Source of the DNA: Candidatus Babeliales bacterium | Lineage (GTDB): Bacteria > Babelota > Babeliae > Babelales > JACPOV01 | Direction: 5' to 3' | Length of the DNA: 64,000 nucleotides | Assembly (NCBI GenBank): GCA_050250855.1 | Contig: JBFWNW010000001.1 | Location: 344,279-408,278, forward strand | Shown: positions 21,001 through 27,000 of the stretch, in pieces | Layout of the letters: every line of letters begins with the position of its first letter | How positions within the stretch are numbered: the stretch's first letter is position 1 | Made by a program: the position numbers

Positions 21001-24000
21001 TAGGTTTGTGGAATGTAACCGTAATGGAATGGATAATGCAGATGAGATGATAAAATACGATCAAGACGCAGAAAGCCGGTAGGCTTGTCAAGCTCATATT
21101 TAGCCTTAGATCCTTGCTGAATTTCTATGATGGATTGTACGGTCTCTGGGGCATTTTCACCAACGCTTAGGGAGTGCCAGGGGTGAAAAAAACGATCAGA
21201 TGGTTTTGTTTGCATTGTCTTCCTTAAAACTACTGATAAACTAATCAAAATATGCCTTTAGTATAGCAGGCAATGGCCCTTTTAGAAAGGGTCTAGCCCC
21301 CAATTGTTAAAATTTGTCACTATGGTATAGTTAAACTATTAGTTTAGCATTTACCTTGAGTATACGTAGGGGTTTTTATGAAATTATTAGGGAATTCTCT
21401 TCTTTTAGCATTTTTTGTACATGCCGCATATGCCGATACGGTTGTTCCGTGTATCAAACAAGAAAATATTTCTATTTGTAAAGACCAAATTGTTAGCGAA
21501 CTTAAGCGTACAAAATATACGCAAATAGGGTTGGCAACGGCGGGGCTAGCACTAACTGGCTTTGGCCTGTATCAACTTTTTAAACCGGAAGAGTTTGCGC
21601 TTCATCATCCTAAGGATTGTGAAGCGGTTGCTCGCTTAGTTGATTTTGCTCAAAGAAAAATGCAAGATTTACCGCCTGTGGAAACAGTATCAACAACTCC
21701 TGGTTTTTGGCATCAAGTTATCGATTATACAAAATTTATTTTTCAAAGTGGCCTTGTTATGAGCGTTGCCGGTGTTATTTCTGGTGTAACGCATCCTTTC
21801 TTAACGCCAATTTTCAAACAGCTTGGGCGCGCATCAGATGCATTTGAAGGTATGATCGATAAAGTTGCGCATGAAACTACGCTAGCATGGTATGTAAAAT
21901 CTCATACAACGTTATTTGATCTTTTGGCGGCATTAGAAAAACATGCTCAAGGATATGCAGATCCTGTTGATGCTTCTGATTTTGAGTATCATAAAGATAG
22001 TTTTATTGATAGTTACAACTTGCTTGTCAGCAACATAGAGTCGGTACTTGGTTTTATTGCTTACAAAACGGAATTGCTTGAAAAAAAATCTCCTACCAAT
22101 GCAAGCCGTGCTCAACATATTGCCATACGCATACAAACAAAATGTGATGCACTAACAAAACATATAGAGCAGGCAGCTGAACAATCATTGTGGAGAGAAT
22201 CTGCACAAGAACTCAAGAAAGAGATTATAAACTTTAAATCTCTTGTGCAAGAATCATTTGATAGCTTTGCTCTTATTGAGTTTTGCTGTTAAGCAATGCA
22301 ATTTGATTTGATTAGTTTTAGAGCTTATCCATAAATTCAAAATTCAAAAAAAATTATACTTTGTGTCCGTACCCTTCGACAGGCTCAGGGCGAACGGAAT
22401 AAAAAAAGTTTTCTAAAACCGTTCGTGCTGAGTTTATCGAAGCATTCGAACGATAATTAGGCAGTAATCCCTACAATATCAACCGCATCAACGAGTGGTG
22501 TAACCGAAATTGGTTTTTCATAACCGTATTTTCGTTCCAATACACGATTGATAGCATGAGCAACAACGTCTACATTCTCTTTTATGGTAAATTCTGCAAA
22601 GCCAGTAAGAAGTTTTGCTTCTTCAGCTGAATAGTTAAAGTTAAACGTATTGCAGTAATCATATGCTATGCAAAAATCAGGGTCAAAGTGTGGACTGTAG
22701 CAATTGTTTTTAATACGTGGGAAATAAATAATAACAGGAACTTCAGGATCTTCAGGATCCTCAAGAACGCTGACAAACTGTTTATCAATTATTTCTAAAT
22801 TTATTGGCGGGAACTTTAATCCTTTTTTGAGCGCATAATCACGAGCCTTGAGTAATTCTGGTGCGCCTTGAATATTAGCAGAAGCATCATATACAATAAT
22901 AATATCTACAGCGCGTGCAGCACGCAATACCGGAGGAAATGGTAAATTAAAATCAAGGCCAGCATCAACAAGGCTAATAGTTATATCTTCTTTTATAGGG
23001 CTATTTGCCATATTGTGAGTAAAGTTAAGGAGCATAGAAGGGAACAATCTGATATCGCCTAAAAATGAGCTTACAATAAGATCAAGTGCTTTCTTAAACG
23101 CTTTTGCCAAAAAATCAGGAAGTTGATGCCCAAGGTATGAAAGATTATTGGCACTTAGACTAACCACGTCTTTTAAGCTTACTTCAAATGCAGAACCGAA
23201 TACGCCCATAAAATAACCAAGCGTTTGCTCCGGTGCTTTATCAATAGAAACACCATCTCTGAATTTTCTTCCATAAGCCCATGTCGGGATATAAGATTTT
23301 AAGAAAGAGCTGCCAACTTCAAAAGGTGAAAACTCCATCCATTCATAAGGATTTTGATAGCTTTGTATGGCAGTATAAAGAGGCATAGGGAAAGAGCCAT
23401 CTTTTATATGAGCATGAGAATCGGTCAGCCTGATCAACATAGGGTTTTTTACAAACTGTTTTAAAATAGTATTGGCAATAACACCGCCATAAATATCCAT
23501 GGTGGAAACAAACTGCCGCGCAATCAGTTTGGTAATGATGATTTGAAAGAGTTCACTGAGTTCATAAGGGTCGTTAATGTGATCGATGCCATCATACAGT
23601 TTATGTTGTAATTCAAAAATATATTCTTTTAGTGACTTGCGTGAGGCAATCCAAGGAGCAAGAGCCCATGAAGAACCAGAAAGTCCTACGCAATAAAGGG
23701 AGCAATCAAGAAGACCAATTTGTTTTGCACCATGTAAAAAGCCGAGGGTGGTAAGCATGGCTCTAAAACCACCACCACTGAATATACATGCTATACGAGG
23801 AACTTTGCCATCTTCAAGAGGTTTTTCTAGATACTGCTCTAAGCTCTTTTTTATAACAAGCATACGATTTTCTATAAACTTTTTTTCATCTTGGCAAATA
23901 TCATCGCATTCTGTATAACGAACAGCGGCTTGGTCGTTATAATGAGGGTGATGAGCAATTAAAGAATATAGCTTTTCAGGAACGTGCGATATCTCCATGC

Positions 24001-27000
24001 CGATATCATGCAATGTCTCTCTCATTTTATCGTAAAAATCAACTAAAAATTGCGGCCAACGTCGATTGTGATAGTTTTCCCATTCTTTTGGAATATCCTG
24101 CATGGGCGCAGCAACTAGAGAATGTATACCAAGAGAAATGATTAACAGTACTGTATATTTTTTCATACTCAGCTCCTTTTTTTCTGGCCATACTTTAATA
24201 CGCCAACTTCATGCGGAGCAATAGTTTTGTGCAATTTTTTAAAGTTGTTTTTTTGTCATATCTGATTATACTTTGAAAAAAGCCTTTTTATTTATTCAAA
24301 CTATATTATTTATATGACGCAAAAAAATTCTCCCACAACCCCCTTAATGCAGCAATATTTTGCTATAAAACAGGAATATCCTGATACCTTGTTACTATTT
24401 CAGGTGGGGGATTTTTATGAACTTTTTTTTGATGATGCCAAGAAAGCCGCAGCATTTTTGGGAATAACCTTAACAACACGTGGCAAAAATCATGGCGAGG
24501 ATATTCCCTTATGTGGCGTGCCTATCCATGCACGTGATCATTATATTGCAAAGTTAGTCCGTGGCGGCTTTCGCGTTGCATTGTGCGATCAATTAGAACA
24601 GCCGCGTCCTGGGCAAGTTGTCAAACGTGGCGTGACCAATGTGCTGACGCCAGGAACGTTGACTGATGGCAAATTACTTGATGAAAAATCTGCATCCTAC
24701 TTATTTTCCTTTTTTCCTACTCAAGACTCTTTAGGCCTTTTATTTGGTGAACTGTTAACCGCACAACTTTTTGCAACCGTTATTCCTTATGATGCCGTGC
24801 GCCTTTTAGAGGGTGAATTATCACGCTTTTTTCCTGATGAAATTTTAATTCCTGAAGGCAAAGAGGGTAAAAAATTTGGTCAGCTTTTTAGTAATCTTGG
24901 TTATTGTTTAACCTATAATCAGTTTGATGAGCACAATACTGAGCCATTTGAATGGCTCAACCATTTTCGCGAATCTACTGTGCAATCAGTGCAGCAGCAT
25001 AATGCATTGCAATTGGCATTGTACAATATGTACTGGTACTTAAAGAAAAATCAGGAGCGGGCGCTTGCACAATTTTCTACCATTCATTTTTATGACCCAG
25101 AAGATTTTTTAGTGCTTGATCCTGCAACGCAGCGCAATTTAGAACTGGTGCAGAATGCGCAAGATGGCAAGCGTTCTAATACTTTATTTTCTTTGCTTGA
25201 TAAAGCAGTAACGCCAATGGGTTCACGTTCTATAAAAAAATGGCTTGTCAGGCCCTTATTAAAAGAAGATTTAATTGCTCAGCGGCATGATATTGTTGCA
25301 TATTTTATGAGCAAGCCAGTTTTGCTGCAGCGCATCCAAGGAATTTTGCGGTATATTGGTGACCTCGAGCGTATTATTGGCAGAATCGCCTTGGCGCGTG
25401 CGTCGGTGTATGATTACGTTTTACTGGGCAAAGCGTTACGTAGTTTGCCAGAACTCAAAGAGCTGCTGCAGAATGCATCCCATTTTCCTCTGATCAATCT
25501 TGTATGCGGGTATGCTGATAATTTTCATGCACTATGTTCATTGCTCGAAGCTTCATTACATGATGCGCCAGAAGATGGCATTATTAAAAAAGGTTTTGAT
25601 CAGGAGCTTGATCGTTTGCGCAATTTAGCAGAGCATAGTAATCAAGCAATTCTTGAGCTTGAACAACAAGAACAAGCGCGTACCGGTATTGCTTCATTAA
25701 AAATTCGTTTTAATAATCTGCAGGGATATTATATAGAAGTTACCAAACCAAATATGCATTTGGTTCCCGATGATTTTATCCGCTCGCAAAGTTTAGTCGG
25801 TAAAGAACGTTTTACCACCGTGGCGCTTCGCAAACTAGAAGTTGATATCATGACTGCGCGTGCTAACGTTGAACGTGTAGAGCAGGTTGTTTTTGAGCGT
25901 ATAAAAAGTGACGTTGCTCAGCATGTTGGCTCTTTGCGCAAATGGTGCCAACTTATTGCACATCTTGATGCACTGGCCGGTTTTGCTGCAGTTGCCGCAG
26001 AATATCGTTATGTTCGTCCTACCTTTAATGATCAACATATTTTGCATATTAAAGAAGGGCGTCATCCTGTTATTGATGCCAAATTGCAGCATCGTTTTAT
26101 ACCGAATGATACGCAGCTTGACGATACGCAAAAACTTTTAATTATTACCGGCCCGAATATGGGTGGTAAATCAACATTTTTACGCCAAACAGCGCTTATC
26201 AGTATTATGGCACATTGCGGTTCTTTTGTTCCTGCCAAGCAAGCAAACATTCCTTTGCTTGATAGAATTTTTACGCGTATTGGCGCAGGAGATAATGTTG
26301 CTGACGGTAAAAGTACTTTTTTGGTGGAAATGGAGGAAACGACTGCAATTTGTACCTATGCTACCAAAAATAGTTTAATTATTCTTGATGAGGTTGGTCG
26401 CGGCACCAGCACGTTTGATGGCCTTGCTCTAGCGCAAGCAGTGATTGAATATATTTATACAACGGTGCAAGCATCGTGTCTTTTTGCAACGCATTATCAT
26501 GAACTAACACAGTTATCGCAAACATTTCCTGGTATTGTTGCCTATCATGCGGCAAGTAAAAAAACTGAACAGGGTATTTTATTGCTCTATAAAATTTTAC
26601 TTGGCGCAGCGGATGGTAGTTTTGGTCTAGAGGTTGCTAAATTGGCCCAAATTCCACCATCAATTATTGCCCGTGCTGATACGCTTTTAAAAACGCTTAC
26701 GCATGAAAAAAGTTATCCTGTTATTGTTGATCAACAACATCTGGTACTTGAAAATCAAAAATTAAAAGAAACGATACACGATTTACGTGTTAAACTTAAA
26801 GAAAAAGATGAGCTTTGGTCTCGCTTGAACTCAATAAACCTTAATGATTTATCCCCAAAAAAGGCATTTGATATGTTGTGGGAGCTTAAAGGGGATTGAG
26901 AACTTTTTTGTTTAAAGCTCAGCTTATTGTTGCATAACGCTTCTCCCTTATAGGCAGATAAAATAGTGAGGAGATTGCCTTTCTGGTAAAGTGAATGCAA

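What a model noticed while it worked through the whole genome (the two positions that open the first line are those of the whole stretch)
22457..24166. Eukaryote-type cytosolic phospholipase A2 (PLA2_B) pair with signal peptides: a near phylum-specific trait among bacteri [...]
g00350 (C1:366735-368444, minus, 569 aa) and g00907 (C3:190917-192809, minus, 630 aa) are homologues of the catalytic domain of animal cytosolic phospholipase A2 and fungal phospholipase B (Pfam PLA2_B), each with a signal-like N-terminus and no C2 domain. Both keep the three cPLA2 active-site elements (glycine-rich oxyanion stretch ending in Arg, the nucleophile Ser in a small-x-Ser-Gly-Ser turn, the Asp of the dyad). 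Among bacteria the family is almost confined to this phylum, which marks it as an old, retained, eukaryote-derived lipase, presumably used on host membranes.
Evidence so far: pfam.tsv: PLA2_B E 5.7e-32 (g00350, aa 125-433); two stretches of about E 8e-11 (g00907). swissprot.tsv: the five best hits of each are animal cPLA2 (26% identity over 544 and 613 aa). The three motifs and the hydrophobic N-termini were read in the printed sequences; the Ser turn of g00350 is at aa 161. relatives.tsv: PF01735 in 221 of 189,784 bacterial species genomes, 181 of them among the 260 Babelales (9 of 9 in the family), 0 of 10,118 archaea.
(Added by a program. Inside this text positions count along the whole contig: contig position 344,279 is position 1 of the stretch shown here. 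"Call 12" and the like, gene names such as g00115 and contig names such as C1 are that model's own, and its searches are not shown. The text may have been shortened before it was handed on; [...] marks where a part breaks off. The agent that wrote the report below was given it as the finding of a first reader that could run no searches.)

Follow-up and report, generated by a model that had tools for sequence, protein, structure and literature searches.

The report
Exported cPLA2/PLB-type lipase of Dependentiae
A protist-parasitic bacterium carries an intact, probably exported lipid-cleaving enzyme of the family otherwise known from animals and fungi; most of its phylum has it, and nobody seems to have studied it.

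Summary
Window 22457-24166 (-) encodes a 569-aa protein with a Sec-type N-terminus and a complete PLA2_B (PF01735) domain: Pfam E 8e-31, and an AlphaFold model against human cPLA2-alpha at Z 44.6 over 427 residues. GGGFR131-135, Ser163 and Asp401 align with cPLA2 Arg200/Ser228/Asp549. No C2 domain. A 630-aa paralogue lies on contig 3.

PF01735 matches 204 of 261 genomes of the phylum (110 of 145 genera). The two paralogue lineages predate several GTDB families. Outside the phylum I confirmed two carriers, both nested among Dependentiae sequences.

"Eukaryote-derived" is not shown. The best tree splits bacteria from eukaryotes once (AU p 0.81), but it is unrooted. With its short cap and no C2, the protein resembles fungal and Capsaspora forms more than animal cPLA2.

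Most likely it is an exported Ser-Asp acyl hydrolase acting on host phospholipids. Fatty-acid salvage fits this genome: no ketoacyl synthase, but ACP, PlsX/Y/C and one acyl-activating enzyme. It does not fit the phylum pattern, because lineages that keep the synthase keep the lipase too.

I found no paper on it in six searches. This scan met the same domain before in another Dependentiae genome (e1-2399465).

Verdict: a new bacterial member of a known family, of moderate interest.

The parts
22457..24166 (-). Gene for the 569-aa PLA2_B-family lipase (paralogue 1)
   Evidence: ORF; Pfam PF01735 E 8.1e-31; 1cjy phmmer E 5.4e-37; AF2 model pLDDT 86.5; VIA Z 44.6 to 1cjy
24173..24176 (-). GGAG ribosome-binding site, 6 nt before the ATG
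   Evidence: Upstream sequence printed
24104..24166 (-). aa 1-21, Sec-type signal-like N-terminus (MKK + hydrophobic core + VAA); no lipobox Cys; Pro follows the Ala-Ala
   Evidence: Hydropathy scan (11-aa window maximum 2.35, the only hydrophobic stretch). 219 of 243 homologues with a full N-terminus have the same feature by a crude heuristic.
23900..24103 (-). aa 22-89, family-specific helical N-terminal region standing where cPLA2 has its C2 domain
   Evidence: No Pfam hit. Helices 33-36, 39-59 and 64-70, pLDDT 47-73. Structural alignments to cPLA2 start at model residues 77-81.
22526..23899 (-). aa 90-547, catalytic domain of cPLA2/PLB type
   Evidence: phmmer stretches 90-340 and 396-545 to 1cjy; VIA model range 79-547
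23762..23776 (-). GGGFR 131-135: glycine-rich oxyanion stretch and the Arg aligned to cPLA2 Arg200
   Evidence: G131 and G132 in 86 of 86 rows and R135 in 84 of 86 rows of the bacteria+eukaryote alignment.
23672..23686 (-). GLSGS 161-165 with the nucleophile Ser163
   Evidence: Ser in 86 of 86 rows; invariant in A1, 57 sequences
22967..23191 (-). aa 326-400, short cap segment between the GSAF motif and the Asp strand
   Evidence: 75 residues here; bacterial median 71 (51-122); fungi and Capsaspora 65-105; animals 111-325. pLDDT about 67-75.
22958..22966 (-). Asp401-Ala-Gly: the Asp of the Ser-Asp dyad
   Evidence: Aligned to VVDSGL of 1cjy; Asp in 86 of 86 rows
24314..26899 (+). mutS, divergent neighbour; a conserved synteny anchor, not functionally linked
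   Evidence: Pfam MutS I-V. MutS lies next to the orthologue in 7 of 12 related loci examined.
21378..22292 (+). 304-aa hypothetical protein, convergent neighbour, signal-like N-terminus, no Pfam family
   Evidence: A weak homologue lies beside the lipase in 6 of 12 related loci.

Best explanation
The gene encodes an exported, C2-less member of the PLA2_B family (group IV cPLA2 / fungal phospholipase B). The Sec machinery takes it across the inner membrane by its N-terminal signal. [quoted passage not shown] A Ser163-Asp401 dyad, the Gly131-133 oxyanion stretch and Arg135 (phosphate contact) would hydrolyse acyl esters of glycerophospholipids or lysophospholipids. The bacterium is an obligate parasite living in a protist vacuole, so the likely substrate is host membrane lipid. 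The likely outcomes are vacuole or host-membrane damage (remodelling, egress) and release of fatty acids. It has no C2 domain and only a short cap, so it should not need Ca2+-driven membrane docking as cPLA2-alpha does. Shown here: family, fold, intact catalytic residues, signal-like N-terminus, conservation across the phylum, secretin genes in the genome. Inferred: activity, signal cleavage, export beyond the periplasm, host target.
For: Family and fold: Pfam PF01735 at 107 bits; 1cjy phmmer E 5.4e-37; Foldseek 1cjy_A E 2.6e-26; VIA 1cjy_B Z 44.6, rmsd 3.1 A over 427 residues, against Z 18 or less for patatin-like chains. Catalytic residues: G131, G132, S163, G164 and D401 in 86 of 86 rows, R135 in 84 of 86, R418 in 81 of 86. 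Export: a signal-like N-terminus here, in paralogue 2, and in 219 of 243 full-length homologues by a crude heuristic. Two secretin genes in this genome. In passages I read, T2SS is called the only secretion system found in Babela, with a homologous system in JCVI TM6SC1 (PMC4378268), and T2SS components are reported as core genes across seven TM6 genomes (PMC4776705). Selection: the domain is present in 204 of 261 genomes of the phylum and 110 of 145 genera, with no internal stops in the listed matches. Synteny with mutS is conserved in 7 of 12 related loci. Two paralogue clades each span several GTDB families. No patatin gene competes for the role in this genome.
Against: No activity, secretion or expression data exist, and no RNA run was listed. 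The residue after the predicted Ala-Ala cleavage site is Pro, here and in 9 of the 10 closest full-length homologues printed. From recall of E. coli signal peptidase I, Pro at that position blocks cleavage, so the N-terminus might stay as a membrane anchor. My signal test is a hydropathy heuristic, not SignalP. The host target is inferred only from lifestyle. 57 of 261 genomes lack the domain, including whole families (f6 0 of 7, f8 0 of 4), so it is not indispensable for the lifestyle.
Confidence: 0.6

Rival explanations
1. The main role is lipid salvage. The enzyme frees fatty acids (and lysolipids) from host phospholipids, and the bacterium, which cannot make fatty acids, activates them and builds its own membrane.
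For: This 95%-complete genome has no ketoacyl synthase, PF00109 0 matches with controls 14 of 14. It keeps ACP, PlsX, PlsY, PlsC and one 547-aa AMP-binding acyl-activating enzyme. It has no DegV/FakB. Yeoh et al. state that TM6 lack fatty-acid synthesis and that the route to host lipids is unknown (PMC4776705, passages).
Against: Across the phylum the lipase does not replace fatty-acid synthesis. In the families that keep a strong ketoacyl synthase (f12, f15, f17, f18, f20) PF01735 is present in 51 of 54 genomes. In the other families it is present in 152 of 206. Families f6, f8 and f19 lack both. I set these groups at family level after seeing the tallies, and related genomes are not independent.
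Confidence: 0.25
2. It is a periplasm-facing housekeeping enzyme. The N-terminus is an uncleaved signal anchor, and the lipase remodels the bacterium's own envelope or imported phospholipids rather than attacking host membranes.
For: A conserved Ala-Pro junction follows the hydrophobic segment. Chromulinavorax is described as importing phospholipids through ABC systems (PMC6561590, passage).
Against: The family shows effector-like traits. Copy number varies, with tandem arrays such as three adjacent copies in G143 and G263. N-terminal extensions vary, and one form carries ankyrin repeats. Whole families of the phylum do without it.
Confidence: 0.1
3. It is not a bacterial gene at all, but eukaryotic host DNA mis-binned into the genome, or a very recent capture from a host.
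For: The family is otherwise eukaryotic. The Atlas lists look-alike clusters labelled Eukaryota.
Against: The gene lies inside contig C1, with at least 366 kb upstream of it by its own coordinates. It sits between mutS and an inorganic pyrophosphatase, has a Shine-Dalgarno site and has local G+C 0.37, like its surroundings. Orthologues keep the mutS neighbour in 7 of 12 loci. The bacterial sequences form one deep clade apart from all 26 eukaryotic rows.
Confidence: 0.02

Closest known systems
Human cytosolic phospholipase A2 alpha (PLA2G4A, PDB 1CJY) and delta (5IZ5/5IXC)
   Same: Same catalytic domain. VIA Z 44.6 and 43.2, 427-439 aligned residues at rmsd 3.1 A. GGGxR, GxSGS and DxG are in register, as are the Arg residues aligned to chain 563 and 566.
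   Different: No C2 domain. A Sec signal instead of a cytosolic location. The cap between GSAF and the Asp is 75 residues against 111 or more in the vertebrate rows. About 26-29% identity.
Vertebrate cPLA2 gamma (PLA2G4C)
   Same: A C2-less member of the same family of similar length. The Atlas structure row scores TM 0.70/0.73.
   Different: An intracellular animal enzyme. In my tree it sits inside the animal clade, far from the bacterial clade, and its cap is 210 residues.
Fungal phospholipase B / lysophospholipase (PLB1-type) and C2-less fungal and Capsaspora PLA2_B proteins
   Same: They group with the bacterial clade to the exclusion of animal cPLA2 (SH-aLRT 100). The best Atlas structure row is an ascomycete lysophospholipase, TM 0.77 by query. 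From recall, classical fungal PLB1 is secreted and has PLB, lysophospholipase and transacylase activities.
   Different: Eukaryotic. Most of the fungal relatives I sampled lack a clear secretory N-terminus by my heuristic. Identity is about 28-36%.
Bacterial patatin-like phospholipase effectors (ExoU, VipD, PlpD) and, from recall, Legionella's T2SS-secreted PlaA/PlaC
   Same: Probably works like them: a Ser-Asp (patatin superfamily) or other acyl hydrolase exported by an intracellular or pathogenic bacterium to act on host lipids.
   Different: A different family. Z is 11-18 against 44 for cPLA2, and there is no Patatin Pfam hit. PlaA and PlaC are GDSL enzymes (recall). ExoU and VipD use T3SS and T4SS (T3SS for ExoU per the entry titles; T4SS for VipD from recall), systems not described in this phylum in the passages read.
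Dependentiae PI-PLC-X + cPLA2-type fusion noted earlier in this scan (e1-2399465)
   Same: Same phylum and the same cPLA2/PLB-type domain, also read as exported.
   Different: That protein is a 1235-aa two-domain fusion. This one is the plain single-domain form. I did not re-examine that record.

Membership tests
Pfam PLA2_B (PF01735) / group IV PLA2 - phospholipase B family | Score above the family's curated HMM threshold | tested here: met
   107.4 bits against a cut-off of 23; paralogue 2 scores 92.8 bits
Pfam PLA2_B (PF01735) / group IV PLA2 - phospholipase B family | Nucleophile Ser in a G-x-S-G-S turn paired with an Asp (Ser-Asp dyad; cPLA2 Ser228/Asp549) | tested here: met
   Ser163 and Asp401 align to the 1cjy motifs. 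Both are present in 86 of 86 aligned rows.
Pfam PLA2_B (PF01735) / group IV PLA2 - phospholipase B family | Gly-rich oxyanion stretch ending in Arg (cPLA2 Gly197/198, Arg200) | tested here: met
   GGGFR 131-135; G131 and G132 in 86 of 86 rows, R135 in 84 of 86
Pfam PLA2_B (PF01735) / group IV PLA2 - phospholipase B family | cPLA2-type alpha/beta fold with a cap, distinct from plain patatin | tested here: met
   Model pLDDT 86.5. 1cjy Z 44.6 and cPLA2-delta Z 43.2, against Z 18.2 for the best patatin-like chain.
Pfam PLA2_B (PF01735) / group IV PLA2 - phospholipase B family | Phospholipase A2/B or lysophospholipase activity | not testable with these tools
   Needs an enzyme assay
Ca2+-dependent cPLA2 subgroup (alpha, beta, delta, epsilon, zeta) | N-terminal C2 domain for Ca2+-dependent membrane docking | tested here: not met
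   No PF00168 hit. None in 16 long bacterial relatives, while animal relatives carry it. aa 22-89 is predicted helical.
Type II secretion substrate | Cleavable Sec signal and a T2SS in the genome | tested here: inconclusive
   The N-terminus is signal-like by hydropathy and there are two secretin genes. Pro follows the putative cleavage site, no dedicated predictor was available, and T2SS substrates have no sequence signature.

The most novel reading that the evidence does not exclude
The tree shows one clean split between a deep, phylum-wide bacterial clade and all sampled eukaryotes, and it has no root. So the transfer may have gone the other way. An ancestral Dependentiae-like parasite could have donated its exported lipase to an early opisthokont. 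Animal cPLA2, the enzyme that starts eicosanoid signalling, and fungal phospholipase B would then descend from a bacterial parasite's gene.
Probability: 0.15. Interest if true: 0.8.

Novelty: new member of a known kind. Interest (0 to 1): 0.5.

Why it matters
Dependentiae are a whole phylum of obligate parasites of protists, and almost no host-interaction factor of theirs has a known mechanism. This lipase has an intact active site, is probably exported, and occurs in about four fifths of the sampled genomes. That makes it a concrete, assayable candidate for how these bacteria damage or mine host membranes, and possibly for the unanswered question of how they obtain lipids. It is also a clear and ancient inter-domain sharing of the cPLA2/phospholipase B family. 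With an outgroup and wider eukaryote sampling, the origin of that family could be tested.

Tried and rejected
1. NCBIfam gave no family for the protein.

A 9-sequence alignment worked.

3. A FastTree tree on an hmmalign alignment (155 rows; P0281 dropped as too gappy) placed Capsaspora and two fungi inside Dependentiae subclades. The site-heterogeneous IQ-TREE run with 17 fungi did not reproduce this, so I treat it as a long-branch or sampling artefact.

4. The 'careful' bootstrap search never finished in three calls. Only the quick tree (SH-aLRT) and the AU test were used.

5. I expected fatty-acid salvage to show as an inverse pattern between lipase and ketoacyl synthase across the phylum. 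It does not.

6. The look-up of sequencing runs listed no RNA holder.

7. Six literature searches found no paper on a bacterial PF01735 protein. Term look-ups in four Dependentiae papers found 'lipase' 0 times in each: PMC6561590, PMC4776705, PMC4378268 and PMC12172432. Supplementary gene tables of those papers were not opened and may list the gene.

8. The search of earlier findings by sequence and by place in this genome returned nothing.

9. I considered a binding test between the lipase and the conserved 304-aa neighbour (a possible immunity protein or chaperone) and did not run it. The genes converge, and the adjacency looks like general synteny.

10. I did not try rooting with patatin: about 10% identity, Z 15-18.
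Full report
**What is there.** Window 22457-24166 on the minus strand is a 569-aa ORF with an ATG start and GGAG 6 nt upstream. It lies in sequence of 33-40% G+C. On one side is a divergent mutS. On the other are a 304-aa hypothetical gene and an inorganic pyrophosphatase.
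- Pfam gives one family, PLA2_B (PF01735): E 8.1e-31, 107.4 bits against a cut-off of 23, aa 125-433 on profile positions 1-335 of 491. NCBIfam has nothing.
- phmmer against PDB sequences finds human cPLA2-alpha (1cjy, E 5.4e-37) in two stretches, query 90-340 on chain 150-410 and query 396-545 on chain 544-718. cPLA2-delta follows at E 1.7e-30.
- In that alignment GGGFR131-135 lies on SGGGFRAM, GLSGS161-165 on GLSGS, and LVDAGL on VVDSGL. Counting from chain residue 544 puts Asp401 on Asp549. Arg415 and Arg418 fall on chain 563 and 566.
- That these positions are Arg200, Ser228 and Asp549 of the cPLA2 literature is my recall. It agrees with the chain numbering printed.

**Structure.** An AlphaFold2 model built on a 57-sequence alignment has mean pLDDT 86.5 and pTM 0.86. 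Confidence is low only at 15-26 and 558-569, and middling (67-75) at about 330-390.
- Foldseek ranks 1cjy first (E 2.6e-26), then cPLA2-delta. The next family, VipD and other patatin-like chains, starts at E 1.8e-4.
- VIA-align gives 1cjy_B Z 44.6 (rmsd 3.1 A, 427 residues, model 79-547) and 5iz5_B Z 43.2. The best patatin-like chain is PlpD at Z 18.2, and ExoU and VipD score 11-15.
- The protein is therefore a cPLA2/PLB-type enzyme in the strict sense, not a generic patatin.
- There is no C2 domain. Residues 22-89 are predicted helical with low confidence and match nothing.
- The ESM Atlas agrees. By structure its nearest clusters are an ascomycete lysophospholipase, chordate cPLA2s with C2, and the C2-less group IVC enzyme.

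**Export signal.** The only hydrophobic stretch is the N-terminus, MKKYTVLLIISLGIHSLVAA, followed by PMQDIP. There is no lipobox cysteine.
- I ran a crude hydropathy rule over the 250 homologues collected. 243 have at least 60 residues before the GGGxR motif, and 219 of these have such an N-terminus.
- Several of the 24 exceptions start exactly where their relatives' mature part begins, so they are probably mis-called starts.
- The Ala-Pro junction is conserved among the closest homologues. From recall, Pro after the cleavage site blocks E. coli signal peptidase I, so cleavage is not certain.
- This genome has two secretin genes.
- In passages I read, T2SS is called the only secretion system found in Babela, with a homologous system in JCVI TM6SC1 (PMC4378268). 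T2SS components are reported as core genes across seven TM6 genomes (PMC4776705).
- In Chromulinavorax, 44% of CDS are said to carry a signal peptide (PMC6561590).

**The pair and the phylum.** The genome (1.22 Mb, 11 contigs, 95% complete) has two PF01735 genes. The second is at C3:190917-192809 (-), 630 aa, with GGGYR, ALSGS, VDAGL, a signal-like N-terminus and a longer cap.
- A six-frame scan of the phylum finds the family in 204 of 261 genomes. That is 148 of 189 high-quality genomes and 110 of 145 genera. It rings in 0 of 14 control genomes.
- It is missing from whole families (f6 0 of 7, f8 0 of 4) and weak in f3.
- Many genomes have 2-5 matches, some in tandem.
- In the representative library 1,961 clusters match at E 0.001 or better and 856 at 1e-30 or better. 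The top 150 all score at least 276 bits.
- Named relatives are 'hypothetical protein' of Babeliales/Dependentiae, or JGI's automatic 'phospholipase A2'.
- In my tree the window's gene falls in a clade (SH-aLRT 97) with sequences from GTDB families f16 and f21, and its f1 orthologues sit with it in the FastTree run. Paralogue 2 falls in another clade (SH-aLRT 100) with f1, f13 and f16. The duplication therefore predates those families.
- The mutS neighbour is kept in 7 of 12 related loci, and the 304-aa neighbour in 6 of 12.

**Outside the phylum.** A motif-seeded scan of one genome per 185,579 species confirmed 91 relatives at 78 loci.

| Record title | Loci |
|---|---|
| Dependentiae, Babeliales or TM6 | 37 |
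| 'uncultured Pseudomonadota' | 17 |
| Unclassified 'bacterium' | 20 |
| Another named taxon | 4 |

- Labels are unreliable. The 'Pseudomonadota' locus L036 and the 'Epsilonproteobacteria' locus L080 have the same match coordinates as G102 and G074 of the phylum scan.
- Two carriers are real outsiders by that test: a 7-Mb Riflebacteria MAG with one copy, and a 2.8-Mb 'Clostridiales GWF2_38_85' genome with three tandem copies.
- Their loci have 42-45% G+C, and both nest among Dependentiae sequences. That points to secondary transfer.
- This scan is a floor, since it needs two motifs.
- Earlier notes of this scan report widespread bacterial lipases with a cPLA2-like fold split by membrane domains. 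I did not test those notes. If they are right, the fold is not rare in bacteria, while the PF01735-type soluble form is.

**Relation to eukaryotes.** Searches for longer proteins, and a search with a chytrid domain, gave named eukaryotes: Capsaspora (263 bits to the query), molluscs and crustaceans with C2, vertebrate cPLA2 beta, gamma and zeta, and many fungal 'lysophospholipases'.
- I built an IQ-TREE tree (LG+C20+F+G4 by PMSF, quick search) of 86 rows by 504 columns. There were 60 bacterial rows, picked from 156 unique domain sequences by a distance threshold plus forced key rows, and 26 eukaryotic rows picked by taxon.
- Animals form one clade (100), the 17 fungi another (100), and 58 bacterial rows a third (97). 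Capsaspora and one bacterial pair (L027/L128) stand apart. Everything non-animal groups together at 100.
- Holding all 60 bacterial rows together gave a tree 26.5 log-likelihood units better than the free search, with p-AU 0.812.
- So one bacteria|eukaryote split is the best tree found. One transfer is enough, but without a root its direction is open. My eukaryotes are all opisthokonts.
- The segment between GSAF and the catalytic Asp is 75 residues here. The bacterial median is 71 (range 51-122). Fungi and Capsaspora have 65-105, and animals 111-325.
- With its short cap and no C2, the protein looks like the fungal and filasterean form rather than animal cPLA2.

**What it does.** The catalytic set is intact and under selection: G131, G132, S163, G164 and D401 in 86 of 86 rows. 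I take it to be an active acyl hydrolase. With its signal and the parasite lifestyle, exported action on host phospholipid is the most economical reading.
- I tested the attractive idea that it feeds lipid salvage. This genome has no ketoacyl synthase, DegV or patatin. It does have ACP, PlsX, PlsY, PlsC and one acyl-activating enzyme. That is the gene set of an organism that must import fatty acids.
- Across the phylum, though, ketoacyl synthase is strongly present in families f12, f15, f17, f18 and f20 (55 of 261 genomes in all). Those families carry the lipase in 51 of 54 genomes, against 152 of 206 elsewhere. Families f6, f8 and f19 lack both.
- Salvage may be a benefit, but it does not explain the distribution.

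**Novelty.** Six full-text searches turned up no study of a bacterial PF01735 protein. Term look-ups in four Dependentiae papers found 'lipase' 0 times in each: PMC6561590, PMC4776705, PMC4378268 and PMC12172432. Their supplementary tables were not opened. Databases already label the family automatically, and this scan has met the domain in another Dependentiae genome as a PI-PLC fusion (e1-2399465). I therefore file it as a new, phylum-wide bacterial member of a known enzyme family, of moderate interest.

Noticed in passing
P0251 (Capsaspora owczarzaki CAOG_03031, 1526 aa; not in the window): This is the best eukaryotic match to the query (263 bits, 36% identity). It has intact motifs and a short cap but long low-complexity inserts. 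FastTree nested it inside a Dependentiae subclade; the mixture-model tree leaves it on its own branch. A transfer between a Dependentiae and this snail-associated amoeboid organism is possible.
   Followed up: partly
L054 (Riflebacteria MAG, 7 Mb) and L089 (Clostridiales bacterium GWF2_38_85, three tandem copies): These are the only confirmed carriers outside the phylum. Both nest among Dependentiae sequences (L089 next to L065, SH-aLRT 97), and their loci have 42-45% G+C. They look like secondary acquisitions from Dependentiae.
   Followed up: partly
L036, L080 and 16 further loci titled 'uncultured Pseudomonadota': Public record titles mislabel Dependentiae genomes. L036 ('Pseudomonadota') and L080 ('Epsilonproteobacteria SP22') have the same match coordinates as G102 and G074 of the phylum scan.
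   Followed up: yes
window 21378-22292 (+): A 304-aa protein with a signal-like N-terminus and one hydrophobic helix, no Pfam family, convergent with the lipase gene. Weak homologues keep this position in 6 of 12 related loci. It could be unrelated synteny or a partner of the lipase.
   Followed up: partly
window 17911-19068, 19681-20166, 20229-20603, 26948-27523, 27646-28923: Five further ORFs around the lipase begin with signal-like N-termini and have no significant Pfam family. This fits the high share of exported orphan proteins reported for the phylum.
   Followed up: no
phylum scan, families f12, f15, f17, f18, f20: A FabF/FabB-type ketoacyl synthase is strongly present in 5 of 21 GTDB families (for example f17 33 of 35, f18 12 of 12). 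The published statement that the phylum lacks fatty-acid synthesis therefore does not hold for all lineages.
   Followed up: partly
P0107, P0110, P0137, P0139, P0230 and about a quarter of homologues: A subfamily carries roughly 80-100 extra N-terminal residues with a recurring I-x-V-x-N ... LYVAxYY motif and no Pfam match. One relative (P0232) has ankyrin repeats in front of the lipase domain.
   Followed up: no
G143:C20, G133:C5, G198:C2, G183:C79, G187:C3, G186:C1, G119:C27: Several Dependentiae genomes have two or three PLA2_B genes side by side, so the family expands by tandem duplication.
   Followed up: no
G000:C4:124788-125834 (+): This is the genome's single AMP-binding enzyme (547-aa frame, E 1.3e-81). 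It is a candidate acyl-ACP or acyl-CoA synthetase for imported fatty acids.
   Followed up: no
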